Source of the DNA: Nanobdellati archaeon
GTDB taxonomy: Archaea; EX4484-52; GLR71
Direction of reading: 5' to 3'
DNA length: 28,526 bases
Assembly (NCBI GenBank): GCA_019429005.1
Contig: JAHYJR010000009.1
Span: 1-28,526, forward strand
Positions 1,532-18,934 of this stretch are shown here, piece by piece. Below the pieces are notes generated by a model. That model did not search any database. It saw only the letters and a program-made list of their open reading frames with translations, and was not told the origin of the DNA. The position numbers were made by a program, and so were the translations under genes. Each line of letters begins with the position of its first letter. The first letter of the stretch is position 1.

Positions 1532-2872
1532 TTAAAATAATTTATTTTCTCTTCTTGAAAAACAGGAACTTCCACCGACAAGACACTTTGGTTTACAAAG
1601 ACTGTTCACACACCGTGCCATCATAGATGCACCAAGAGCAAGACCATCTTCTACAGCATAGACCTCATAACCGTCAAGCATAGCATCAACAATATCAAGC
1701 TTATTGCCTTCTATTGCAGCACGACCCGTAAGACCCAAAATATAAGAATCTATGTATTTTTTAGATTCAGTTACAAGCACATCGATTAAAATTGCAGAGG
1801 TATTATCTATCGTATCATAGATAGCTTTCTGACCATAAGTTTCAAATAAATCACGACCAATATCTGATATTTTTCTAAGATCTGAACCATTTATACCCAC
1901 ATCAATACCTATAATTTCAATATCTTGTTCTTTTGCCTTATCAAGATATACAGGCACCATACCACACACATCTTTATTGACAGAACCTACAGAAATATAA
2001 TCCATAAGTTTAGATGAGAAATCCAAAGAACCCTCATTAAGATAATCTGCATCGCCAGACTCTAATTCACCAAGATCCATAACAGATGGATAATCATCAG
2101 TTGCAATACTGCTGACTAAAGCATCAAATATTCCACCATAAAGACCGACAAAACAGACTTTTGTCATATTATCATCAATAACTTTTCCGGCAAGAGTTGT
2201 GCCACCATCTATGAATATACCAGAATCAATATACGAATCTGAACCGAATACGCACTGTTGAAACTGTTTATTAGATTTATTAACTTCAAAAGATATTGCA
2301 TCTTTCAAGCCAGCAACCACAAGGTCGCTTTCCATACTGTTTGCAGTCACACTGTCAGGCATAACATTTGCGACATAACCGTCAAATGGCAATTTGTCAT
2401 AAACAGAATATTTCTTAAGAGATTCGGGTATATCTTGTATCATCTTTTTAGAAGGTATACCTGTATTTAAACAACCATTTGCAAGAGATATTATTATATT
2501 GTCAAGGTCTTTTGAATTATCCATACCTGCAACAATACCTGTAGACCTTACTGCAAAATCAAGATCTTTTGTGTTTAGGCGTAAATTGAAAAAAGTCTTT
2601 CGGATTGCATCTGAAATATAATCTGACAATTCAGATGTTCCTAGATTTTTGCCTAAGACAGTCTTGAAATCGTTACCATCATCAACATCACGTGTCATAG
2701 ACACACCTTTTTCTAAAAGATATGTTTTTTTGCTTGGAAACTCTGTTGCTGTAAGAATCGTTTTTACGGTTGTGTTTCCGACTTCAACAGAAAGGCATGT
2801 GAAATACTTATTTGGATTCTTCCGGAATTCTTGTACATCAAGAGTTTCGTGAACAATAGAGTGTAAAACCAT
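1532..2872 (-). CDS. Methanogenesis marker protein 14 (DUF2114)-like, ASKHA/actin-like ATPase fold
   Basis: Family-type motifs SVEVGNTTVKTILTAT, DLDFAVRSTGIVAG, LANGCL, NSMESDL, DGGTTLAG, GLTGRAAI, VEDGLALGASMMARCVNSL. Confidence 0.85.
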   Translation of the reverse strand: MVLHSIVHETLDVQEFRKNPNKYFTCLSVEVGNTTVKTILTATEFPSKKTYLLEKGVSMTRDVDDGNDFKTVLGKNLGTSELSDYISDAIRKTFFNLRLNTKDLDFAVRSTGIVAGMDNSKDLDNIIISLANGCLNTGIPSKKMIQDIPESLKKYSVYDKLPFDGYVANVMPDSVTANSMESDLVVAGLKDAISFEVNKSNKQFQQCVFGSDSYIDSGIFIDGGTTLAGKVIDDNMTKVCFVGLYGGIFDALVSSIATDDYPSVMDLGELESGDADYLNEGSLDFSSKLMDYISVGSVNKDVCGMVPVYLDKAKEQDIEIIGIDVGINGSDLRKISDIGRDLFETYGQKAIYDTIDNTSAILIDVLVTESKKYIDSYILGLTGRAAIEGNKLDIVDAMLDGYEVYAVEDGLALGASMMARCVNSLCKPKCLVGGSSCFSRRENKLF

Positions 2873-3049
2873 CTTTAATCAACAAATTATACATAATAAC
2901 AAAATACTAACAACAATAATAGAAACTATAATAGTATAGAATCGAATATTACATATTATAACAATACTAAATATATCACCAAGCAATAATTTAAAACTTA
3001 TGAGTGATAAAATCTATAAGTATATAAAATTTAAAAAATATTTTTTAGT

Positions 3050-4684
3050 ATGAGTGATTCTTCAAAAAAGAATATCTGGCCTTTAATAAAACCAGATATA
3101 ACTATACTAAATGAAGACGGATATGTTGCAGTTGCAACTTTAGATAACAAAAAACTTGATTTCTCTGATGTAAAAAATGTTTTGATACAAGGCCCTTTAA
3201 TAACTGAAAATGTAGGTATTGAAAAGCTTGTCATTAATACAGTAACAAATCCCTACATTAGATATCTTGTACTTGTTGATAGCGAAGTTATGGGTCATAA
3301 ACCAGCACACACAATAAATGCACTTGTCGAGAATGGAATAGATGAAGATACAAAAAGGATTATTGGTGCAGAAGGTGCTATACCGAATATCCCAAACATT
3401 AATGATGATATAATTGCGCATTTTAGAGAACAAATTGAAATCGTAAACCTTGTAAAAGATTATAACCCAGATCTACAAGTGCTTTCAGATGATATATATT
3501 TAGAAACTATAAAAGAACAAATTGCAAATTTACCTAAAAAAGATTCTTTTACAACTTATGAACATAAAATTGACTTACCACTTCTTGGAACACCGATGAA
3601 AGAAATGAAACCAAGAATATCTGATAATATAGCTAACAGCATGATATACCCTACTGCATCTCATCCGTTTAATGAACTTAGAGGAGGTACAGACATATCA
3701 TCTTGGAATCGTAAAATATCTAATATAGGCGGAACATTACTTGGAGGATACCCTGGACAGTTTCCAATCTTTATGGGTGGAAGCATATTCTATAAAGGAC
3801 ATGATATCCTAAAAGATTCAAAAAAAGGTATTTTTGATGAAAAAAGAGCAGAAGAATTAATATTATGCCAAGATGCATTATCTTCAAAATATAACATTCC
3901 ATGCTTTATTGACCTTGTTGCAGACACTAAAGAAGCTGCTGAAAAATACATATTATTTTTTACTGAAATAAGTGATTCACCGTTTGCTATTGATTCAGGA
4001 GTCTCTGATGTTAGAATACATGCTGCACAATTTGCAGAGGAAATTGGACTTGGAAACAGATTAATCTATAACTCACTTAACATGGGTATTGATGAGAAAG
4101 AAGCGTCATACTTACAAAATAATCCGCCACAAAATGCAATTGTCCTCGCATATTCAAGTGAATATGGATTATCAAAAAAAGAGGATGTATTATATTCAAG
4201 AGGTCTCGTAACTCATGACGAGATTCTTAAAATGAATCGTAAAGAACTTACAAAACTTGCAAGGACAAGTACATTATCATTTGCAGAAGCAATAGGAATC
4301 CCAAATATACTTATTGATACAGCAGCAGTTAGCGGAATGGATGGCTTGATTGCACTTGAAAAATTCAATGATTATGGTTATCCTTTAGGTTGTGGTGCAC
4401 ATAACGTGATTCAAGATCCAAAAAATAGCTATGCTAGTGTTAGTATAAATGCAATTTCAAGAATAAAGGGTGCGGATTTTCTTTTATATGGACCAATAGA
4501 TAGCTCAAAAGAAAACTTTTCTTCAATGAACCAAATAGAAAAAGTTATGGGCGATTATAATACTAAATCATTTAATATAATTCCAGCAACAAAACATCCT
4601 TTTTGGGGCGAGGAGGATAAAGATGAATCTTGTAGACCCGGAATATGTACAAGACCATGTCGTAAGACAAATATTGTGCCATAG
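3050..4684 (+). CDS. MtrA-MtrH fusion (cobamide-binding domain + pterin methyltransferase TIM barrel), soluble MtxA/MtxH-like
   Basis: aa ~1-165 MtrA-like (WPL...VAVATL...TENVGIEKLV...NPYIRYL...SEVMGH...IIGAEGAIP...FREQIEIV, His83). From aa ~219 MtrH-like (IGGTLLGGYPGQFP...GSIFYKGH...KGIFDEKRAEELI; PFAIDS; LIYNSLN; PLGCGAHN; GADFLLYGPI). No TM helix seen. Confidence 0.9.
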   Translation: MSDSSKKNIWPLIKPDITILNEDGYVAVATLDNKKLDFSDVKNVLIQGPLITENVGIEKLVINTVTNPYIRYLVLVDSEVMGHKPAHTINALVENGIDEDTKRIIGAEGAIPNIPNINDDIIAHFREQIEIVNLVKDYNPDLQVLSDDIYLETIKEQIANLPKKDSFTTYEHKIDLPLLGTPMKEMKPRISDNIANSMIYPTASHPFNELRGGTDISSWNRKISNIGGTLLGGYPGQFPIFMGGSIFYKGHDILKDSKKGIFDEKRAEELILCQDALSSKYNIPCFIDLVADTKEAAEKYILFFTEISDSPFAIDSGVSDVRIHAAQFAEEIGLGNRLIYNSLNMGIDEKEASYLQNNPPQNAIVLAYSSEYGLSKKEDVLYSRGLVTHDEILKMNRKELTKLARTSTLSFAEAIGIPNILIDTAAVSGMDGLIALEKFNDYGYPLGCGAHNVIQDPKNSYASVSINAISRIKGADFLLYGPIDSSKENFSSMNQIEKVMGDYNTKSFNIIPATKHPFWGEEDKDESCRPGICTRPCRKTNIVP

Positions 4685-4701
4685 TAAGATCTGTGATTAT
4701 T

Positions 4702-6057
4702 ATGAATAATATAATAAAAGATCCAAACATATTACGTGGAAAAACATTTCCAAATGTTTGGAGACAATATCTTGATGACATAAACCGGAATGGCCTTAGA
4801 AATTATACTGAAGAAAAAGGCATAATTAATGAAAATTTCTGTACGCTTGCTGTTATCACAGACGTAAATAGTGGTAAGATACTTCCAGATGAATACAATA
4901 CAATTTCTGAAGCTAATATGCCCGGATACCTTAAAGAATATGGAAGCATAACCTGCATGGATAATCTTGATTTTGAATATACATATGGTGAACTTGAATG
5001 TGATCATTTTGGATATAATCAGCTCGAAGATGCTATCAGTAAAATCCAAAATAATCCAGAAGGAACATATGCTACAATGAGATGGGATCCTCCAGTCGCA
5101 TGGGATACAAAAAGTAGACCTTGTCTTGTATCTTCAATATGGAAAGAATTTAATGACGCAATACATACAATACAGATTGTAAGAGTGCATGATATAAAAG
5201 GAGGGATACCTGCAAACAATTACGGAGTTACAAACGCTTGGGGACAAAATGTATCTAACGCACTTAACATACCACTTGGTGATGTAGCATATCTTTCAAT
5301 AGTTCCGGATTTTAGAGATACAAATCTTAAAGAGGTTGAAACTATAACAAGATCATATGAAAACTGTGATCGTAACCTTATACCTAAAAACAGATCACAT
5401 TTACCAGGACCTGTACTTGTGAAAGCAAATGATATTAATACAGCATATCAAAAAGCAAAAGATGCATTTAAAAGACATTCAAAAGAAAATGTTAGTCAAA
5501 AGGAATTGATTCTTGGTGTATTTATAAGAGATGTAGATACAACAAACACAGACTATTATAATCTAGAGATTGTAGAAAAAACATTAAATGGTGAAAATGT
5601 TGTTGGGAATCGTCTCTGTAACTTTGAAGGTTATCCTGAAAGGACTGCAGAATATCTAAGAGGACATATCCGTGAGATTAAAGCTATGGATGATGATAAA
5701 TTTGACATATTTAAACAAGCACTCCCTAGAAAAATTGACCAGATTGAACAAAATGTAACTGGAAAATATGGTCTGATTGAAATGCCAAATCTTGTAAGAG
5801 TTGGTATGACACCATATGATCCTGTAAAAGATAAAAAAGGTACAGATACAAACCTTCTTTGGGCACAACCGCTCATACGTGGCGGTAGAATGAACATGGT
5901 CGGCGTTTATTTAGATTCTTCTACAGACGATTTCTCTGATGATTTCTCAACCATTGCAGGCATACAAAATCATATAACTGAGCGTGTCAATAATGAAACA
6001 GGACAGAAACTTGAAAATGGAAGTATATTTATTCAATATGCACCAATACATGATTAA
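4702..6057 (+). CDS. Thymidylate synthase-fold protein with two tandem archaeal-type TS domains (first keeps the catalytic Cys, second degenerate)
   Basis: Domain 1: FEYTYG...NQL...NNP...WDP...PCL...RVHD..GIPAN. Domain 2: GNRL...DQI...PNLVR..YDP..D...IRGGRMNM without PC. ATG 4702 preferred over GTG 4693 because GTGAT looks like the SD. Starts 17 nt after the mtrAH stop. Confidence 0.8.
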   Translation: MNNIIKDPNILRGKTFPNVWRQYLDDINRNGLRNYTEEKGIINENFCTLAVITDVNSGKILPDEYNTISEANMPGYLKEYGSITCMDNLDFEYTYGELECDHFGYNQLEDAISKIQNNPEGTYATMRWDPPVAWDTKSRPCLVSSIWKEFNDAIHTIQIVRVHDIKGGIPANNYGVTNAWGQNVSNALNIPLGDVAYLSIVPDFRDTNLKEVETITRSYENCDRNLIPKNRSHLPGPVLVKANDINTAYQKAKDAFKRHSKENVSQKELILGVFIRDVDTTNTDYYNLEIVEKTLNGENVVGNRLCNFEGYPERTAEYLRGHIREIKAMDDDKFDIFKQALPRKIDQIEQNVTGKYGLIEMPNLVRVGMTPYDPVKDKKGTDTNLLWAQPLIRGGRMNMVGVYLDSSTDDFSDDFSTIAGIQNHITERVNNETGQKLENGSIFIQYAPIHD

Positions 6058-6075
6058 CTGTGTTAAAACCATCAG

Positions 6076-6955
6076 ATGATAAACATGAAACCTGTAGATT
6101 TACATATACACACAAATATGTCTGATGGAAATATATCTTCTGAAGAAATAATAAAAATTGTTTCAGGTAAACTTTCAGCTATAGCTTTTACAAACCATGA
6201 AAGCATAAAAGCATATGAAAATGTTACTGTTGAACTTGGAAAAAAATATAATGTTTAAATTATAACAGGAACTGAAATAAATGTCAATCATAACGGTATA
6301 AATTGTGAGATACTAGGATATCTGTTTGATTCTAAAGATGAAAAACTAAATTGTTTTTTAGATAAACTCAATAAAACAAAATTAGGTTCAATTAAAAAAT
6401 TAATTGATATAATTAATTCTGAAGATATTTTGAATAAACCGATAGATATTGAATCTTATTTTTCTAAATCAAATCATATAAACAAACATCATGTCGCAAA
6501 AGGTATGATTGAAAACGGTTATAATGACACAAAAGATACAATATTCAAAAACTATTTTACTATAGATAAAATAAAACAAACAGAATGGAAATTTCCACGA
6601 CTTAAAACAGCATCAAAGATTATTAGGGATGCAGGTGGTGCGGTTGGAATTGCACACCCTGAAAGGATAGCTATTCAAGATAAACTCAAATTCATAAAAG
6701 ACATAATGCCGCACATCACAATAATTGAAGCGATATATAACTATCGTGAATTTAGGAACTCTAAATAAAATAAACAATTCAGACAGGATTCTGAAAAAAA
6801 AAATAACCTTTGCAAAAAATGAAGGGCTTTTAATCTGCGGTGGATCTGATTTTCATTATCTTAACAAAAATGAAGAAAATGTTCTTGGTAAATTTTCCAT
6901 ACCCTATGAGTATCTTGAAAAGATAAAAGAAGCTAATTTGAAACATAATAGATAA
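6076..6955 (+). pseudogene. PHP-family (YciV/TrpH-like) metal-dependent phosphoesterase, disrupted
   Basis: DLHIHTNMSDG, FTNHE, (in-frame TAA 6256-6258) ITGTEIN...EILGY, AHPER, then GGSDFH in the +1 frame. Second TAA at 6766-6768 and an A10 run at 6794-6803. Confidence 0.85.
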
Positions 6956-7983: not shown

Positions 7984-8646
7984 TTAAAGATATTTGTTTT
8001 TCGTTAATATTGGATTTAAATGACTTAAAGTCTTATTAAAAAGTGCACCAATAGAATCCTCTTTTGTATGCCTGAAACCAATCTTAACAGTATCAAGCAC
8101 AACAACATTATCGTAATATTCTGAAAGTTTCAAGTAATTATTTCTTGCAATAATCTGCTTTTGAATATTTGACTCATCACGATTCATTGCTTCATTTCGA
8201 CTCGATAATCTCTCTGATGCAAGATAAGGTGGGATATCATATATAAGTATCAGACTTGGATCTGGCATAAAACTGTTAATCTCTTTAATATCTTGATAAG
8301 ATAAATCTCCAGATGTCTGTGATGCGAAAGTTGATGTTAAACCCCTGTTTGATATTACGTTTGTGCCTTTTGCTAAATTGGGCTCAATAACTGTCGATAA
8401 AAGATAAGCCCTATCAGCTGCAAAAAGATGTGCTTTTGTTCGATCATCAAATGCAACATCAGACGATTTTAGATTTGTTGCTTTCAAAAGAGCACCTATC
8501 GGATTCGCTGTAGGCTCCTGAACAAAAATACAATCTAAAGCATTTTTATCAACATAATGTTTAAGCAAATCTACTTGTGTATCTTTTCCAGAACCGCTTA
8601 TACCATCAAGAATTATGTAATTACCGCGTTCATTGTTTGGAACCAT
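7984..8646 (-). CDS. tmk: Thymidylate (dTMP) kinase
   Basis: P-loop ILDGISGSGKDTQ, QEPT, LFAADRA, VISNRG (canonical DR), PDPSLILIYD. Confidence 0.88.
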   Translation of the reverse strand: MVPNNERGNYIILDGISGSGKDTQVDLLKHYVDKNALDCIFVQEPTANPIGALLKATNLKSSDVAFDDRTKAHLFAADRAYLLSTVIEPNLAKGTNVISNRGLTSTFASQTSGDLSYQDIKEINSFMPDPSLILIYDIPPYLASERLSSRNEAMNRDESNIQKQIIARNNYLKLSEYYDNVVVLDTVKIGFRHTKEDSIGALFNKTLSHLNPILTKNKYL

Positions 8647-10510: not shown

Positions 10511-10603
10511 CGTTCTTTAAGAGCATACGCAGAATCCTACTATTTTGTAATACTTTGTTGATGATTTGTTGTTTTGCGTTCTTTAAGAGCATACGCAGAA
10601 TCC
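10511..10603. repeat. 27-bp perfect direct repeat pair (CGTTCTTTAAGAGCATACGCAGAATCC) separated by 39 bp
   Basis: Copies at 10511-10537 and 10577-10603. Confidence 0.92.
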
Positions 10604-10920
10604 GACAGACTATAATCTGCAAACTTAAGCTCGTTCGCATCATATAAAAGATATACCAAAGGATTGCTTTTGACATATTCAGACGCTTTCGTACTTGATT
10701 CAGATCCATATATAAATTCATTTGAATTTAATCCTGTTGCAACTTCAATTTTTTTTGAATTTCCACTTTCATTAAGTACCCTATCTATACCATACAATAA
10801 AACATTCATCAAATTCTTAGGATGGATACCCCTAAATATAATATTGACCGAAGTATCAAGCATCACCTGTACAATATATCTTAAAGAATCTTTTCTATAC
10901 AGATCAAGCATAGTACCCAT
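10540..10920 (-). CDS. Hypothetical protein, possibly truncated by a 66-bp duplication/insertion
   Basis: 126-aa ORF with GGTGAT immediately upstream. The 3' end spans a 27-bp direct repeat. Confidence 0.6.
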   Translation of the reverse strand: MGTMLDLYRKDSLRYIVQVMLDTSVNIIFRGIHPKNLMNVLLYGIDRVLNESGNSKKIEVATGLNSNEFIYGSESSTKASEYVKSNPLVYLLYDANELKFADYSLSDSAYALKERKTTNHQQSITK

Positions 10921-13042: not shown

Positions 13043-14167
13043 CTATAACCCACCCATCAAAACAAAAAGGATATGTTTTGCAATAAAGAAAATCACGATA
13101 GATACCACTACAAATATAGGGCTGTAATTAATACCACCTTTGATGTTTCCATTCTTGATAAGAGAAATCACAAGACCTGCAAAAAAGTTTGTTATAAATA
13201 TAGCAGTAATTGCAAAACCATCGAAAAATGCAGGGTCTACAGATGGTGCTGATGGTGATATTGACATAAGTGAAGAACCCATATTCTTTGAACCAAAATC
13301 ACCCATCCCACCCCACATATCAATTGTACTTGAAATAAGATAGCTTGAAATTGCAAACATAATAGGAGATGCGATAACGCCGGCAATTATAATAAATATA
13401 AGATACATCTGGATACTTGAATTTATCTCTTTCTTCAACACCTTTGCATTCTCAATATCATTTGCACTTTCTTCAAGAAGTGTTGCAATCTGACCACCGT
13501 TTTTCATACCTTCAACAAGAAGATTTATTACACGTTCAAGATGTTCAGAATAAATGTTATCTGTAAGTTTTTTGAACGCTTTTTCAGGTTTTATACCACT
13601 ATAAATCATAAATGCAGTTTTCTTTATTTCAACAGATAATGCACCAAATTCTTTTCTTGCAGAAAAGATTAACGCTTTATCAATAGTATAACCAGATTTT
13701 ATGTTTGATGAGGCCAATATAAGCACATCAGATAAAATCTTTTCAACATCTTTTGTCCGATTATCAGCCATCACAGTATAAATAATATAAGGTACAAAAA
13801 AGGACACTACAATAAAAAACAATGAAATTGTTAAAAACAAATAGGTAGGCATAAGTAAAAACAAATTTGCAACAACAAGCAAAGCTAAAAATAAGAACAT
13901 GAAAAATCTACTAATAATTACAGCTTGATGATCTATTGGATGTTTTATACCAGCATAAATTGCTTCTTTTTCTAGTAAGGCACGATATTTTGCCGGATAT
14001 TTATGATATATAGCTTTAACATAATCTTTTTGTACATCTTGATACCCTTTAATATTTGAATTAGAACGTTTCCTTTTTTGAGATGTTGAGTGAGTTGAAG
14101 GTGTATTCTGTTCACTATATGATTCAGATTCCATAGACCCCTTATCAACGATATCATCATCAGACAT
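13043..14167 (-). CDS. Type IV pilus/T2SS F-family membrane platform protein (TadC/FlaJ-like)
   Basis: ASSNIKSG..IDKAL...EFGALS.E, GG.IA.LLE, multiple TM helices. Start uncertain (14167-14179). Confidence 0.88.
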   Translation of the reverse strand: MSDDDIVDKGSMESESYSEQNTPSTHSTSQKRKRSNSNIKGYQDVQKDYVKAIYHKYPAKYRALLEKEAIYAGIKHPIDHQAVIISRFFMFLFLALLVVANLFLLMPTYLFLTISLFFIVVSFFVPYIIYTVMADNRTKDVEKILSDVLILASSNIKSGYTIDKALIFSARKEFGALSVEIKKTAFMIYSGIKPEKAFKKLTDNIYSEHLERVINLLVEGMKNGGQIATLLEESANDIENAKVLKKEINSSIQMYLIFIIIAGVIASPIMFAISSYLISSTIDMWGGMGDFGSKNMGSSLMSISPSAPSVDPAFFDGFAITAIFITNFFAGLVISLIKNGNIKGGINYSPIFVVVSIVIFFIAKHILFVLMGGL

Positions 14168-14179
14168 AAAACATAACAC

Positions 14180-15043
14180 CTATAACCTTACAAGTGGTCT
14201 TTTTGTCTTGACCACATTTATGAAAAATATCTGAAACCCTACTAAAAACACTAATATTAAATAAAATACCTTATTGCCAAAACCAGTACCTACAAAAGTT
14301 GAAAGAAGCATGAATAACGTTATACCTAAGGATGGCATAATAACACCAATCATCATATACATCATAGTAAAAGGATTAAGTTCCTGACCATATTTCTTTA
14401 TTGAAATCATCTGTTCTTTTATGATATTATTAACACTAGTCTTAAGAGGTTTTTCAATATCAGTACCAGTTCTCAAAGCATTAAGTATCTGCCAAAAAGA
14501 TTTCCTATAAAGATAAGAGGGGCTTGTGATAACACTTTCCTCAATCGCTTCAATTTCAGATTTCCCACCATTTATCTGTTTCAATATATGTTTCATTTCA
14601 AGAGATATTTCACCATAATTTTCTGAGATTGATACAAGCGCATTATAAAGAGGGATACCGGAGCGAATATTAATTAGAAGATGACGAAGTGCATAAGGAA
14701 GTTCCCTATCAAGCTCACGACCTCTTTTTTTTGCGATGATTTTAGGTTGATATAATTCAGAATAAAGACTAAACATAAACAAGATAGGTACTATAACAAT
14801 ACCTAGCATGTAGATGCTTGAAATCCTCGTAAAAAGACCTAATAACAAAAAAGATACAAGAACTAAAAGCGATAAATTTGCAGATTTAAAAATTGATAGA
14901 GCTATATGTTCATTAAGACTTTTTTTTATTCTTGCCTGAGAAAGATCAATTTCAATATTAATAAAATACGGTGCTATATTTTCACCAAAATGCCTAAAAA
15001 TTTTAGGAATTGGTTTATTTTTAGATATTACCATAACAACCAT
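14180..15043 (-). CDS. Type IV pilus/T2SS F-family membrane platform protein (TadB/C-like)
   Basis: ELPYALRHL...SGIPLYNAL...YGEIS.E, YGQELNP, TM helices. Confidence 0.88.
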   Translation of the reverse strand: MVVMVISKNKPIPKIFRHFGENIAPYFINIEIDLSQARIKKSLNEHIALSIFKSANLSLLVLVSFLLLGLFTRISSIYMLGIVIVPILFMFSLYSELYQPKIIAKKRGRELDRELPYALRHLLINIRSGIPLYNALVSISENYGEISLEMKHILKQINGGKSEIEAIEESVITSPSYLYRKSFWQILNALRTGTDIEKPLKTSVNNIIKEQMISIKKYGQELNPFTMMYMMIGVIMPSLGITLFMLLSTFVGTGFGNKVFYLILVFLVGFQIFFINVVKTKRPLVRL

Positions 15044-15096
15044 ACACCAAAAACATTAAAAATCACACAAAGACTTTCTAAACAATAAATTAACTA

Positions 15097-17010
15097 TCAA
15101 TTTATACCAATAATCTTTTCAGGAGACCCATTAGATTTTGCAAGTTTAACCACGGCTCCCTCATCACGATAATATTCTGCAATGATTTTTCCAACATTGT
15201 TTATATCTTTAATACCCTTATCTAACATCCATTGAAGTACAATCTGTTTTTCAACTAAATTCTCTTCAATTTCAGTCTCATTCATACCAGTATAAAGATT
15301 TATCTCATTTATCAACCGTATAAGACGCCCTTTTCGAATAAATGTATCAGTATGCACGTCCCACTTATATACTACGTTTACCTCATTTGAGACATCTACA
15401 GGAACTATTTCTGCAACTTCAAGAGTTCTTCTAACACCCATACGTCTCTGACGATATTGAACAACCATAAGGTGTAATGCACTGATTAAAGATGCGGGAA
15501 GATTCATAGGTGGATTTATAAGACGTTGATATGCCTGTTCAGCACGATCAGAATGAAATGTAGCATAAGCAGAGTGACCAGTCCGAATTGCTTCAAACAT
15601 AACTTCGGCTTCTTTTCTACGCCGAATCTCTCCGATAATAATCCTGTCAGGTCGCATCCTCAACGAATTTACAAGGAGATCAAGCATAGATACCTTACCT
15701 TGACCTTCTGCATTTGCTTCTCTTGCAGATAATGGCACCCAATGTAAAAATTTAGGTAATTGTATTTCACGAGTATCTTCAATTGAGATGATTCTCTGAT
15801 TTGGTGGTATAAACGGTATAAGCGCATTTAAAAGAGAAGTCTTACCACTTGCAGTACCACCTACAACAAGTATATTAAGCTCATATTGTAATGCAAGCCA
15901 AAGAAGTGCTGCAACTTCCTTTGAAAGTGTGTTTATCTTAGGATCTATAAGATGCACAATAGTCCAAGGATCTCTAGAAAAACGACGAATTGTTAAAGTG
16001 TTACCTTGAGAAGATATTGGAGATATCGTTGCATTAACACGATCTCCTGTTGTAAGGTATGCATCCATAAGAGGATGAAGATTTGTTATTTGCCTTCCAA
16101 CTTTACGCCCAATAGCACCCGCATAATTATATATCATCTCTTCGCTTTTGAAAAGAATATTTGTCTTTACCCAACCAAACCTTTTATGATAGACCCAAAC
16201 TGGCTCAGAACTACTATTTACAACAATCTCTTCAAGATTATCATCATTTAAAAGAAGTTCAATATCACCAAGACCTAACATCTCATGAATCAGATTACCA
16301 CTGATTAAATTCATCTCTAGTTTTGATAGCCCTGGAAGATATTTATCAATAAGTTCATAAGACCGTTCCATAAAACGTTTCTTTATAGTTATTATCGCTT
16401 GAGGATCCACAAATTCTTTAGTTGTTATATCAACTGAAGAGATTATCTCTTCACGGATTTTATCAACAATTGCTCTTGTTGCTGGCTGAATAAGTGCACG
16501 TTTTATATCATAGATTGGTACATATTCTTCCAAAGTTGTATAAATAGTAACTCTAGCTGGAACATTATCTGCTATAAGATCATATTCCATCTTGATTGTC
16601 CTATCAGCACCGATTTGTTTAGGATGTGTGTCAACAGATTTATTTGGTTTAGATATGGTTTTATGGAGAGGTTTATGATCTGATTTAGATATGGTTTTAT
16701 GGAGAGGTTTATGATCTGATTTAGATATGGTTTTATGGAGAGGTTTATGATCTGATTTAGATATGGTTTTATGGAGAGGTTTATGATCTGATTTAGATAT
16801 GGTTTTATGGAGAGGTTTAGATTTAGTAGTAATCTTTTTTTTAGATGAACTCTTTGAATTTGATTTATGTGTCTGTTTAGGTATAATGTCATGTACTAAT
16901 TTAGAAATGGCCTTCTTTAAAACCTTAGAAGTTGAACCTGAAACAGACTTAGGATGTGATTTATTTGATGTTTTAGTTGATTTATCCACATTTACCGATT
17001 TTTTTACCAT
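15097..17010 (-). CDS. Type IV pilus assembly ATPase (CpaF/VirB11/FlaI family) with low-complexity N-terminal extension
   Basis: GGTASGKTS, SIEDTREI, SLRMRPDRIIIGEIR, TGHSAYATFH. Confidence 0.93.
   Translation of the reverse strand: MVKKSVNVDKSTKTSNKSHPKSVSGSTSKVLKKAISKLVHDIIPKQTHKSNSKSSSKKKITTKSKPLHKTISKSDHKPLHKTISKSDHKPLHKTISKSDHKPLHKTISKSDHKPLHKTISKPNKSVDTHPKQIGADRTIKMEYDLIADNVPARVTIYTTLEEYVPIYDIKRALIQPATRAIVDKIREEIISSVDITTKEFVDPQAIITIKKRFMERSYELIDKYLPGLSKLEMNLISGNLIHEMLGLGDIELLLNDDNLEEIVVNSSSEPVWVYHKRFGWVKTNILFKSEEMIYNYAGAIGRKVGRQITNLHPLMDAYLTTGDRVNATISPISSQGNTLTIRRFSRDPWTIVHLIDPKINTLSKEVAALLWLALQYELNILVVGGTASGKTSLLNALIPFIPPNQRIISIEDTREIQLPKFLHWVPLSAREANAEGQGKVSMLDLLVNSLRMRPDRIIIGEIRRRKEAEVMFEAIRTGHSAYATFHSDRAEQAYQRLINPPMNLPASLISALHLMVVQYRQRRMGVRRTLEVAEIVPVDVSNEVNVVYKWDVHTDTFIRKGRLIRLINEINLYTGMNETEIEENLVEKQIVLQWMLDKGIKDINNVGKIIAEYYRDEGAVVKLAKSNGSPEKIIGIN
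16648..16819. repeat. 36-bp in-frame tandem repeat x ~4.8 encoding (SDHKPLHKTISK)n
   Basis: Unit TTTAGATATGGTTTTATGGAGAGGTTTATGATCTGA at 16648, 16684, 16720 and 16756, partial at 16792. Confidence 0.97.
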
Positions 17011-18493: not shown

Positions 18494-18934
18494 ATGGTAA
18501 AAAGAAAAGGTCAAGCAGCACTAGAATATATGATTATACTAATGATAGGTCTTGTTCTCATAACACCAATTATAATCGAAGGCAACAAAAAGATATCTGA
18601 CTTAAGATCAACAACTGCAGCTTTAAAAATTACTGAAACACTAAATGCAATTTCAGATACATCAAGATTAGTATATTCACAAGGAGTACCTGCAAGAATC
18701 ATTATTGATGTTGAATTGCCCGAATATATTAATTCAATCAATATAACAAATAAACACATCATAATTACGCATGAAACCGAACGTGGTATCTCTGATTTTG
18801 TTGAAACCTTTGATTTTAATGTGACTGGAGATATTTCGATATTAAGTGGATTGAAAAAAGTCAAGGTTGAAGCTATATATGATATTTCTGATAAAGTTTG
18901 GGTTAATATCAGCGAGATTAAAAGGATTTATTAG
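18494..18934 (+). CDS. Minor pilin-like protein with class III signal peptide
   Basis: KRKGQAALEYMIILMIGLVLI...VYSQG. Confidence 0.8.
   Translation: MVKRKGQAALEYMIILMIGLVLITPIIIEGNKKISDLRSTTAALKITETLNAISDTSRLVYSQGVPARIIIDVELPEYINSINITNKHIIITHETERGISDFVETFDFNVTGDISILSGLKKVKVEAIYDISDKVWVNISEIKRIY

What the first reader, a model, noticed from the sequence alone, without database searches (positions are those of the whole stretch)
3050..4684. Single-chain, anchor-less MtrA-MtrH fusion with intact cobalt-ligand His
Seen: an MtrA-like domain (His83, codon 3296-3298, in SEVMGH) is joined by a ~50-aa linker to a full MtrH-like barrel, with no C-terminal TM helix. Established: the equivalent His84 ligates cobalt in Methanothermobacter MtrA, and MtrA and MtrH are normally separate subunits of the Na+-pumping complex. 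Inference: this is a self-contained methyl-pterin:cobamide module, like the core of MetH, that needs an external methyl acceptor.
Basis: partly seen in the sequence, partly recalled or inferred. Interest (0 to 1): 0.75.

Follow-up and report, generated by a model that had tools for sequence, protein, structure and literature searches.

The report
Fused MtrA–MtrH beside thymidylate-synthase gene
A tiny symbiotic (DPANN) archaeon that makes no methane carries a rare one-chain fusion of the vitamin-B12 methyl carrier MtrA with the methyl-pterin enzyme MtrH, placed directly before its only thymidylate-synthase-like gene, which hints at an undescribed B12-linked way of making the DNA base thymine.

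Summary
ORF 3050-4684 (544 aa) joins an MtrA domain (His83 aligns with the cobalt ligand His84) to a complete MtrH barrel through about 48 residues. It has no membrane helix. The contig is a genuine DPANN contig, and neither McrA nor MtrE was found in the genome. Such fusions are rare: one other appeared among the 150 best of 769 hits in 1.84 billion representative proteins. Soluble MtrA plus MtrH as separate genes is already in print.

The new point is the partner. Eight bases downstream lies the only thymidylate-synthase-type gene found in the genome, a divergent tandem ThyA-like protein. Across the 42 genomes of the same order:
- MtrA is fused to ThyA in 10 genomes.
- MtrH sits directly before ThyA in 4.
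- MtrA directly follows a dCTP deaminase in 4, or a dCMP deaminase in 3.

Best reading (about 0.5): the fusion loads a methyl group from a scavenged methyl-pterin onto its corrinoid, and the ThyA-like enzyme passes it to dUMP. No biochemistry supports this yet. Four searches of the held paper library found no paper that makes this link.

This scan reached a similar reading earlier on other DNA (DPANN and Asgard windows). Those are AI notes, not independent evidence.

The parts
3050..4684 (+). Single ORF, 544 aa (P0001): soluble MtrA-MtrH fusion
   Evidence: open frame, with both Pfam domains over their cut-offs. Below every NCBIfam equivalog cut-off: TIGR01114 171.9 against 271.4, TIGR01111 116.4 against 249.15, MtgA NF047990 132.6 against 550.
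3050..3565 (+). MtrA-like corrinoid-binding domain (residues 1-172)
   Evidence: best solved relative is 8q3v_A (E 3.6e-29). Glu53-Asn54 and His83 align with Glu54-Asn55 and His84. The motif GAIPYIEN reads GAIPNIPN here.
3296..3298 (+). Codon CAT for His83, the predicted lower axial cobalt ligand
   Evidence: The role of His84 is taken from PMC4915002 (passages read).
3566..3709 (+). Linker of about 48 residues (173-220)
   Evidence: Lies between the NF002126 match (up to 172) and the MtrH match (from 221). No family matches it.
3710..4603 (+). MtrH-like pterin-binding barrel (residues 221-518)
   Evidence: best solved relative is 8z9u_B (E 2.9e-42), then an MtrH of a solved Mtr complex, 9qtp_o (1.9e-33), then MtgA 6sj8_A (1.2e-29). 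The His451-Asn452 motif is kept. About 20-30 extra residues near 380-425 lie opposite gaps in P0006 and the solved relatives.
4631..4660 (+). C-terminal Cys528-x4-Cys533-x3-Cys537 tail, function unknown
   Evidence: The other fusion, P0006, lacks it.
4693..6057 (+). P0002, 454 aa: divergent tandem ThyA-like protein, probably co-transcribed (8-base gap)
   Evidence: TIGR03283, 84.4 bits (cut-off 174.55), 2 stretches; the N-half matches a ThyA profile by hhalign at 96% probability; the model's best PDB folds are CMP/dCMP-modifying ThyA-fold enzymes, then thymidylate synthases (E 8e-11 to 4e-8). C-half: hhalign is not significant; the language-model look-up gives 0.91 to ThyA clusters, which is a lead only.
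5122..5124 (+). Codon of Cys144 of P0002, aligned with the catalytic Cys of ThyA
   Evidence: Invariant column C144, together with R164, D167 and N175, in 17 sequences. See also the alignment.
1532..2872 (-). Methanogenesis marker 14 (DUF2114), transcribed divergently from the fusion
   Evidence: TIGR03285, 295.4 bits against a cut-off of 274. Pfam E 2.9e-87. Found in 1 of 42 genomes of the order, G000 only. The same family follows mtrH by 13 bases in a canonical mtrEDCBA..H operon, L034.
2873..3049 (.). A+T-rich 177-base divergent intergenic region (presumed promoters)
   Evidence: Sequence read. No promoter scan was run.
7984..8646 (-). Thymidylate kinase, 1.9 kb downstream (context)
   Evidence: PF02223, E 3.7e-28.

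Best explanation
P0001 is a soluble one-chain methyl-pterin:corrinoid methyltransferase. Its MtrH barrel takes the methyl group of a scavenged methyl-pterin (methyl-H4MPT or methyl-THF) and puts it on cob(I)amide held by the tethered MtrA domain. That domain then swings to the enzyme encoded next, the ThyA-like P0002. There Cys144 activates dUMP, so that C5 attacks the methyl-Co(III) and gives dTMP and Co(I) directly. The logic is that of MetH, with a thymidylate-synthase fold in the place of the homocysteine domain. The reaction is redox-neutral, so no dihydropterin is made. The divergent neighbour, marker 14, may be an ATP-dependent helper that keeps the corrinoid active. Shown: the domain architecture, the conserved ligand residues, the absence of an anchor, and the gene linkage. 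Inferred: cobamide binding, the pterin donor, the coupling to P0002, the direct methyl transfer, and the role of marker 14.
For: 1. Architecture and residues.
2. No Mtr pump and no methanogenesis: one MtrA and one MtrH match in the genome; McrA and MtrE were not found (genome 93.55% complete).
3. P0002 starts 8 bases after P0001 and is the only ThyA-type match in the genome. ThyX, thymidine kinase, SHMT, MTHFR, FolD and DHFR were not found in G000. Thymidylate kinase is present.
4. Domain fusion: MtrA and ThyA lie in one reading frame in 6 of 8 genomes of the sister genus g3 and in 4 of 5 genomes of family f2. Pfam confirms both domains in the four examples scanned. 54 of 84 database relatives of that fusion carry both PF04208 and PF00303. 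The catalytic Cys is invariant and the MtrA His is at least 90% conserved across 16 aligned fusions.
5. MtrH lies directly before ThyA in 4 of 8 genomes of genus g8, and within 5.2 kb in 2 more.
6. MtrA directly follows a dCTP deaminase in 4 of 6 g8 loci examined, and lies within 2.7 kb of it in the other 2. A dCMP deaminase precedes mtrA-mtrH in 3 of 3 g5 genomes. So two different dUMP-making enzymes are linked to MtrA.
7. MtrA and ThyA co-occur in 23 of 42 genomes, MtrA occurs alone in 4, ThyA alone in 5, and neither in 10. These genomes are kin, so the count is not a statistical test.
8. Marker 14 sits next to mtrH in a true mtr operon.
9. The cofactor use of methanogen-type ThyA is described as unsettled (PMC9012536 and PMC9931769, passages read).
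Against: - There is no biochemistry for any member.
- P0002 is below the TIGR03283 cut-off and has no Pfam hit. By alignment it lacks the equivalents of ThyA Ser167, His207 and Tyr209 and of the Arg-Arg pair. The residue numbering is recalled from E. coli ThyA. P0002 may therefore bind another nucleotide.
- The genomes with MtrA-ThyA fusions have no MtrH (0 of 8 in g3, 0 of 5 in f2) and no Pterin_bind protein (0 of 42 genomes over the cut-off). Their corrinoid would need an unknown methyl donor.
- In most fusions Glu54 is Ala, and in G010 (f2) the His is lost.
- G011 and G014 keep SHMT and MTHFR, so an ordinary methylene-pterin route is open to them.
- ThyA of this type in the five Altiarchaeota-titled loci and in the Methanobacteriota and Nezhaarchaeales loci has no MtrA or MtrH within the stretch fetched.
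- The MtrA domain of G000 groups with anchor-type MtrA, not with the ThyA-fused clade. This is a long branch in a quick tree.
- A B12-dependent ribonucleotide reductase was not found in G000, and corrinoid uptake genes were not examined.
Confidence: 0.5

Rival explanations
1. P0001 is an ordinary soluble MtrAH that only moves methyl groups between an unknown methylated substrate and the pterin pool, as proposed in print for non-methanogens. ThyA uses methylene-pterin in the classical way. The gene linkage reflects a shared scarce cofactor, not direct methyl hand-over.
For: [quoted passage not shown] MALP mtrAH has been proposed as a methyl-THF:CoM methyltransferase (PMC6147122). G011 and G014 hold SHMT and MTHFR, and in G011 these lie within 17 kb of mtrA-mtrH and ThyA.
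Against: G000 lacks MTHFR, SHMT, FolD and DHFR matches, so methyl-pterin could not reach the methylene level by known enzymes. This rival does not explain why the corrinoid domain itself is fused to ThyA in 10 genomes that lack MtrH. It also does not explain why MtrA follows dUMP-making deaminases.
Confidence: 0.22
2. The MtrA-like domains linked to ThyA no longer carry a corrinoid. They serve as a pterin-handling, scaffolding or regulatory domain of a pterin-dependent thymidylate synthase.
For: In most MtrA-ThyA fusions Glu54 is Ala, and in G010 (f2) the His is lost. MtrA domains recur with the uncharacterised 'PterinBD-DUF4346' domain. No corrinoid uptake or synthesis genes were shown.
Against: P0001 itself keeps Glu53, Asn54 and His83. 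The His is at least 90% conserved in 16 aligned fusions. P0001's MtrA domain is joined to MtrH, whose known job is to methylate that corrinoid.
Confidence: 0.12
3. P0002 is not a thymidylate synthase. It makes another C5-modified pyrimidine nucleotide, for example for modified DNA, and P0001 supplies the one-carbon unit.
For: The best structural matches are the CMP hydroxymethylase MilA and flavin-dependent dCMP hydroxylases, ahead of thymidylate synthases. The 3'-OH-binding His/Tyr equivalents and the Arg pair are missing.
Against: The Asn that goes with uracil specificity is kept (N175, invariant; its role is recalled). No other dTMP source was found in the genome, yet thymidylate kinase is present.
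Confidence: 0.12
4. The fusion is an assembly or frameshift artefact, or a recently fused and dying gene.
For: In three relatives (G018, G023, L033) mtrA and mtrH lie in the same frame and are separated by a single stop codon. One base change or sequencing error could therefore create a fusion. No reads could be laid.
Against: The ORF has a 48-residue linker with no stop. Both domains keep their key residues. A second, independent fusion (P0006, 32% identical) has the same order of domains.
Confidence: 0.04

Closest known systems
Soluble 'MtrAH' (separate mtrA and mtrH genes without mtrB-G) of non-methanogenic archaea and bacteria, and the cytoplasmic MtrA homologues of methanogens
   Same: The same two families, no membrane anchor, the His ligand conserved, and a function that is unknown or only hypothesised (PMC9635834, PMC6147122, PMC4915002; passages read).
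   Different: Here the two are one polypeptide. That is rare: 1 other among the 150 best of 769 hits. The gene sits in a thymidylate context, not a Wood-Ljungdahl or methanogenic one.
MtrA-H, the Na+-pumping methyl-H4MPT:coenzyme M methyltransferase of methanogens
   Same: Homologous MtrA and MtrH. In the complex the cytoplasmic MtrA domain shuttles between MtrH and its acceptor site (bioRxiv 10.64898/2026.07.03.736320, passages read).
   Different: No MtrE or McrA was found in the genome, there is no transmembrane helix, and the scores are below the NCBIfam equivalog cut-offs. The acceptor cannot be the MtrCDE/CoM site.
Cobalamin-dependent methionine synthase MetH
   Same: The same logic: a pterin-binding barrel and a corrinoid domain in one chain, with the corrinoid moving between donor and acceptor modules.
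   Different: No homology to MetH's Pfam domains. MtrA binds cobalamin in a different mode (PMC4915002). The acceptor module is a separate protein of thymidylate-synthase fold.
Uncharacterised MtrA-ThyA fusion proteins (PF04208 + PF00303) of DPANN, Thermoprotei and some bacteria
   Same: The same pairing of a corrinoid domain with a methanogen-type ThyA. They occur in the sister genus of this genome.
   Different: In G000 the MtrA domain is fused to MtrH instead, and ThyA is a separate tandem protein. The fusion-bearing genomes lack MtrH.
Methanogen-type thymidylate synthase (NCBIfam TIGR03283)
   Same: The N-half of P0002 aligns over 205 columns and keeps Cys, Arg, Asp and Asn.
   Different: 84.4 bits against a cut-off of 174.55. 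It has a second, degenerate half, and several substrate-binding residues are changed.

Membership tests
MtrA (PF04208), corrinoid-binding domain | Profile match over the curated cut-off | tested here: met
   119.6 bits against 25.
MtrA (PF04208), corrinoid-binding domain | His84 cobalt ligand with its Glu54/Asn55 partners | tested here: met
   His83, Glu53 and Asn54 align without gaps to 8q3v_A. Their roles are taken from PMC4915002.
MtrA (PF04208), corrinoid-binding domain | Consensus GAIPF-[YF]-x-EN meander | tested here: inconclusive
   It reads GAIPNIPN: GAIP is kept and the rest is changed.
Membrane-bound MtrA subunit of the Mtr complex (TIGR01111) | C-terminal transmembrane anchor, equivalog score, and mtrB-G partners | tested here: not met
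   Highest hydropathy 1.36. 116.4 bits against 249.15. MtrE not found. MtrB, C, D, F and G were not searched.
MtrH (PF02007 / TIGR01114) | Pfam match over nearly the whole profile | tested here: met
   Profile positions 3-291 of 299, 188.4 bits.
MtrH (PF02007 / TIGR01114) | NCBIfam equivalog cut-off | tested here: not met
   171.9 against 271.4. The subfamily NF002142 gives 205.1 against 287.
MtgA (methylcorrinoid:THF methyltransferase, NF047990) | Equivalog cut-off | tested here: not met
   132.6 against 550.
MetH | S-methyl_trans, Pterin_bind, B12-binding and activation domains | tested here: not met
   Pfam reports none of them at E up to 1.
Cobamide-dependent methyltransferase (functional class) | Bound cobamide that cycles between Co(I) and methyl-Co(III) | not testable with these tools
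   Needs purified protein.
Methanogen-type ThyA (TIGR03283), for P0002 | Equivalog cut-off | tested here: not met
   84.4 against 174.55.
Methanogen-type ThyA (TIGR03283), for P0002 | Catalytic Cys and the Arg/Asp/Asn of the RSHD...N motif | tested here: met
   C144, R164, D167 and N175 are invariant in 17 sequences.
Methanogen-type ThyA (TIGR03283), for P0002 | Ser of RSHD, the His and Tyr of SAHIY, and the Arg-Arg pair | tested here: not met
   P0002 reads RVHD and SIVPDF, and has TY where relatives have RR.
Methanogenesis marker 14 (TIGR03285), for the neighbour | Curated cut-off | tested here: met
   295.4 against 274.

The most novel reading that the evidence does not exclude
A third kind of thymidylate synthesis. 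A ThyA-fold enzyme methylates dUMP with a methyl group carried by a cobamide on an MtrA domain. The cobamide is loaded from methyl-pterin by MtrH (here fused to MtrA). No dihydropterin is formed, so no DHFR, SHMT or MTHFR is needed. The cytoplasmic MtrA homologues of unknown function, and methanogenesis marker 14 as the carrier's ATP-dependent activator, would belong to this system.
Probability: 0.3. Interest if true: 0.92.

Novelty: new variant of a known kind. Interest (0 to 1): 0.72.

Why it matters
Thymidylate synthesis is known in two forms, ThyA and ThyX, and both use methylene-folate. A corrinoid-linked form would be new enzymology.

It would explain how genome-reduced symbionts with almost no folate enzymes still make thymine. 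It would give a function to the soluble MtrA/MtrH genes that are scattered through non-methanogens and to the extra cytoplasmic MtrA copies of methanogens. It would also make the unsettled cofactor question of archaeal ThyA directly testable with two or three recombinant proteins.

Even if the bold reading fails, the locus shows that 'methanogenesis' genes (MtrA, MtrH, marker 14) have been put to use in nucleotide metabolism in a non-methanogen.

Tried and rejected
- Complex prediction. I submitted G014 ThyA (two copies) with G014 MtrA, each with its own alignment. The verdict was 'no answer' (scores 0.01 and 0.02; the mark is 0.32). This counts neither for nor against binding.
- Sequencing runs for 2800-6100: none was listed, so the fusion junction could not be checked with reads.
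- Locus of the other fusion, P0006. The metagenome scan with P0006 alone confirmed no relative. A second scan with the P0001+P0006 alignment gave 41 MtrH-type loci but not P0006's own contig.
- Relatives of P0002. The word-based search found none at E up to 0.001, and there was no PDB sequence match.
- Structure of P0002. Mean pLDDT was 55 and the C-half was under 50, so the pseudo-dimer reading of the C-half stays unproven. hhalign of the C-half was not significant.
- Structure of marker 14. Mean pLDDT was 44.5 with only 3 sequences, too poor for a fold search. Pfam at E up to 10 showed nothing beyond DUF2114. The EutA/BcrAD-like hits of the language-model look-up score 0.82-0.83 and are leads only.
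- The 452-458-aa ORFs next to mtrA-mtrH in g5 are not relatives of P0002.
- 'Fused' g5 genes. One search reported open frames of 528-529 aa for G018 and G023, but these hold an in-frame TAG.
- The first ThyA alignment was too diverse for the genome scan (error), so I used a narrower one.
- Papers. '8Z9U' gave 0 papers. PMC177745 (Nyce and White 1996) is not held.
- Supplements were not opened. The single-gene MtrA and MtrH trees and the marker tables of PMC9635834 are in its supplement and may already list DPANN MtrA/MtrH or marker 14.
Full report
**The observation**

ORF 3050-4684 (+) is open for 544 codons.
- Pfam finds MtrA at residues 7-138 (E 1.5e-34) and MtrH at 221-504, covering profile positions 3-291 of 299 (E 2.1e-55).
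- NCBIfam carries the MtrA match to residue 172 and the MtrH match to 518. All scores stay below the equivalog cut-offs for MtrA, MtrH and MtgA.
- Codon 3296-3298 is CAT = His83. In an ungapped alignment to the solved M. marburgensis MtrA (8q3v_A), His83 falls on His84 and Glu53-Asn54 fall on Glu54-Asn55. The conserved GAIPYIEN reads GAIPNIPN.
- Passages of PMC4915002 state that His84 is the cobalt ligand, that Glu54 is its hydrogen-bond partner, and that cytoplasmic, anchor-less MtrA homologues exist in many methanogens and some non-methanogens.
- The highest 19-residue hydropathy in P0001 is 1.36. A canonical-type MtrA (P0041) reaches 2.34 at its C-terminus. No anchor is therefore predicted.
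- The MtrH part keeps the His-Asn motif. Its Asn aligns with the residue that differs (N to A) between two deposited MtgA sequences.

**The organism**

- The window is a whole 28.5-kb contig of a genome of 1.08 Mb, with about 30% G+C, 93.55% completeness and 1.1% contamination.
- EF-2 on the same contig is 69-71% identical to EF-2 of the sister genus and 58-64% identical to those of the rest of the order. The contig therefore belongs to this lineage.
- Most record titles of relatives read Candidatus Nanohalarchaeota, Nanobdellati or Aenigmatarchaeota. Two carry other labels, Methanosarcinales and Bathyarchaeota.
- McrA and MtrE were not found, and there is a single MtrA and a single MtrH match.

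This is a DPANN-type archaeon that is not a methanogen.

**How unusual the fusion is**

- HMMER against 1.84 billion representative proteins gave 769 hits at E up to 0.001. Among the 150 best listed, only P0006 (516 aa, 32% identical) matched through both domains, and Pfam confirmed both. Fused forms ranking below the listed 150 cannot be excluded.
- The word-based search gave 4 hits, including the query itself, and no other fusion.
- In the 42 genomes held for the order, no other genome has both domains in one uninterrupted ORF.
  - G018 and G023 have mtrA and mtrH in the same frame, separated by one TAG.
  - G011 has them in different frames.
  - Family f6 has them on different contigs.
- Soluble 'MtrAH' as two genes is in print for non-methanogens, with the guess that it feeds methyl groups to the Wood-Ljungdahl pathway (PMC9635834, PMC6147122; passages read).

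The fusion is therefore a rare variant of a known pair.

**The neighbours**

Downstream: P0002
- P0002 (454 aa) starts eight bases downstream. Its N-half is a divergent methanogen-type ThyA:
  - TIGR03283 gives 84.4 bits against a cut-off of 174.55.
  - hhalign gives 96% probability over 205 columns.
  - Cys144, Arg164, Asp167 and Asn175 are invariant in 17 sequences.
- The best PDB folds of its model are MilA, flavin-dependent dCMP hydroxylases and thymidylate synthases (model pLDDT 55).
- The C-half is probably a degenerate second copy: TIGR03283 reports two stretches and the language-model look-up gives 0.91. hhalign does not support this, and the model is poor there.
- By alignment P0002 lacks the Ser of RSHD, the His and Tyr of SAHIY, and the Arg pair.

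Upstream and further downstream
- Upstream and divergent lies methanogenesis marker 14 (DUF2114), over its curated cut-off. It was found in 1 of 42 genomes of the order.
- Thymidylate kinase lies 1.9 kb further on.

**Linkage in relatives**

| Group | Arrangement | Count |
|---|---|---|
| g3 (sister genus) | MtrA and ThyA in one frame of 419-517 aa | 6 of 8 genomes |
| f2 | MtrA and ThyA in one frame, MtrA domain degenerate | 4 of 5 genomes |
| f8 | 594-621-aa proteins homologous to the g3 fusion; the C-part is not recognised as ThyA | 2 of 2 genomes |
| g8 | MtrH directly upstream of ThyA (61-80 bases between profile matches) | 4 of 8 genomes |
| g8 | MtrH 0.7 kb or 5.2 kb from ThyA | 2 more genomes |
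| g8 | On separate contigs in one genome; neither gene found in the other | 2 genomes |
| g8 | Stand-alone MtrA 10-16 bases after a dCTP deaminase | 4 of 6 loci examined |
| g8 | MtrA 1.3-2.7 kb from the dCTP deaminase | 2 of 6 loci examined |
| g5 | dCMP deaminase, then mtrA, then mtrH; ThyA about 10 kb away | 3 of 3 genomes |
| g12 | The three genes on different contigs | — |

- None of the g3 or f2 genomes has MtrH.
- In G011 (g5), MTHFR and SHMT lie beside ThyA.
- Only the G014 dCTP deaminase was scanned with Pfam. The others were recognised by 83-88% identity to it.
- Over the order, MtrA and ThyA co-occur in 23 genomes, MtrA occurs alone in 4, ThyA alone in 5, and neither in 10. These genomes are kin, so this is not a statistical test.

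**Beyond the order**

- 54 of 84 database relatives of the g3 fusion carry both PF04208 and PF00303. Submitters' names include DPANN, Nanohaloarchaea, Aenigmarchaeota and Thermoprotei.
- In 16 aligned fusions the catalytic Cys is invariant and the MtrA His is at least 90% conserved. Glu54 is mostly Ala, and the G010 (f2) member has lost the His.
- A Falkowbacteria locus and a Chloroflexia locus encode MtrA-ThyA-DUF4346. Oscillochloris, a Patescibacteria locus and a Micrarchaeum locus encode ThyA-DUF4346 with an unassigned N-terminus.
- Of the 35 ThyA loci fetched, MtrH was present in 9, all from this order. The five Altiarchaeota-titled loci and the Methanobacteriota and Nezhaarchaeales loci had neither MtrA nor MtrH in the stretch held.
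- Of 41 MtrH-type metagenome loci, none had a ThyA by BLAST.

**One-carbon context**

| Enzyme | Result |
|---|---|
| ThyX | Not found in G000 |
| Thymidine kinase | Not found in G000 |
| SHMT | Not found in G000 or G002; not searched in G010 |
| MTHFR | Not found in G000, G002 or G010 |
| FolD | Not found in G000, G002 or G010 |
| DHFR | Not found in G000, G002 or G010 |
| MttB | Not found in G000 |
| Pterin_bind | 0 of 42 genomes over the cut-off |

- G011 and G014, which have MtrH and a stand-alone ThyA, do have SHMT and MTHFR.
- A B12-dependent ribonucleotide reductase is present in G010 and G011 but was not found in G000.

P0002 is thus the only candidate dTMP-forming enzyme found in G000. 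No known enzyme found there could convert a methyl-pterin to a methylene-pterin or re-reduce a dihydropterin. The genome is 93.55% complete.

**Origin**

- In a quick tree, the MtrA domain of G000 groups (SH-aLRT 95) with P0041, an anchor-bearing MtrA, and with P0071, close to the MtrA of true mtr operons. It does not group with the order's own MtrA or with the ThyA-fused clade. Its branch is long (1.85), so this placement is tentative.
- The MtrH domain falls in a supported set of 15 that holds canonical MtrH, the order's MtrH and P0006. The set is unresolved inside.
- Marker 14 follows mtrH by 13 bases in a Pfam-verified mtrEDCBA..H operon (L034). It lies 4.5 kb downstream of mtrH in another locus, L035.

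A plausible but unproven history is that G000 acquired mtrA, mtrH and marker 14 from a methanogen-type cluster, followed by loss of the anchor and fusion.

**Mechanism**

The reading that fits most facts is a MetH-like relay:
1. MtrH methylates the cob(I)amide held by the tethered MtrA domain.
2. That domain delivers the methyl group to dUMP, activated by Cys144 of P0002.
3. The products are dTMP and Co(I).

- The chemistry parallels SAM-dependent C5-pyrimidine methylation and polar methyl transfer from methylcobalamin to carbon. Both parallels are recalled, not tested here.
- Passages in PMC9012536 and PMC9931769 say that the biochemistry and cofactor use of archaeal and methanogen ThyA are little studied.
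- The weak points are:
  - the lack of any assay;
  - the altered substrate-binding residues of P0002;
  - the absence of MtrH in the genomes that carry MtrA-ThyA fusions;
  - the presence of SHMT and MTHFR where MtrH and ThyA are separate genes.
- I put the coupling to P0002 and thymidylate metabolism at about 0.65, and direct methyl transfer at about 0.3-0.35.

**Literature and earlier notes**

- Searches of the held library:
  - 'thymidylate synthase' with 'MtrH': 1 paper, unrelated.
  - 'thymidylate synthase' with 'MtrA' and 'corrinoid': 0 papers.
  - 'thymidylate synthase' with 'MtrA': 11 papers, none on this topic judging by title and abstract start.
  - 'DUF4346': 0 papers.
- Marker 14 appears in 2 papers; I saw the listing only.
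- The library lacks most subscription journals, and supplements were closed.
- Earlier AI notes of this scan, on other genomes, describe:
  - DPANN operons and fusions that join MtrA, MtrH and ThyA;
  - Asgard single-chain ThyA pseudo-dimers that sit behind a corrinoid/pterin methyltransferase gene.
- Windows sharing short words with P0006 are such Asgard windows.
- I saw these notes only after reaching my own reading. They agree with it but are not independent evidence. I could not fetch those loci.

Noticed in passing
window 1532-2872 (-); L034:6317-7813; L035:13538-14986: Methanogenesis marker 14 (DUF2114) occurs in this non-methanogen, in 1 of 42 genomes of the order. In a true mtrEDCBA..H operon it directly follows mtrH. 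It has ASKHA-like motifs (VEVGNTTTK, DFGTT), and weak language-model hits to EutA and BcrAD ATPases (0.82-0.83) suggest a corrinoid reactivase. This is unproven.
   Followed up: partly
window 4631-4660: The C-terminal tail of the fusion carries Cys-x4-Cys-x3-Cys. The other fusion, P0006, lacks it. It could be a metal or Fe-S site. Two database proteins (P0207, P0208) join an Fe-S domain (PF04060) to MtrA.
   Followed up: no
L006:2400-2440 (G018), L115:4170-4225 (G023), L033:~10555-10780: In three unrelated loci, mtrA and mtrH lie in the same reading frame and are separated by a single stop codon (TAG in G018 and G023). This could be a fusion or fission intermediate, or possible read-through.
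   Followed up: partly
L016:8586-9452, L017:3072-3938, L022:2389-3219, L027:1929-2894: An EamA/DMT-family transporter gene recurs next to ThyA or the MtrA-ThyA fusion in three families (f6, f2, f7). It is a candidate importer of the cofactor or the methyl donor.
   Followed up: no
L015:3585-5334 and L020:2340-4089: Two RimK-like ATP-grasp ligase genes lie divergently upstream of the MtrA-ThyA fusion in genus g3. Enzymes of this family are recalled to glutamylate pterin and F420 cofactors.
   Followed up: no
L092:8110-9576, L096:9365-10918, L090:9515-10969: Bacteria (a Falkowbacteria MAG, a Chloroflexia MAG, Oscillochloris trichoides DG6) encode ThyA joined to the uncharacterised 'PterinBD-DUF4346' domain, and two of them also have an N-terminal MtrA domain. 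No held paper mentions DUF4346.
   Followed up: partly
G018:C25:3260-5779: G018 has a ThyX-type frame of 430 aa with two Thy1 stretches next to SHMT, in addition to its methanogen-type ThyA. Some members of the order therefore hold two thymidylate synthase types.
   Followed up: no
window 6430-6768 (+): A 112-aa ORF matches only the middle (positions 125-206 of 275) of the RNase RNM / PHP-phosphatase models. It may be a gene remnant.
   Followed up: no
window 13043-17010 (-) and 18494-18934 (+): A type IV pilus or archaellum-like set: a PilB-type ATPase, two T2SSF-family membrane proteins, and a protein with a class III signal peptide.
   Followed up: no
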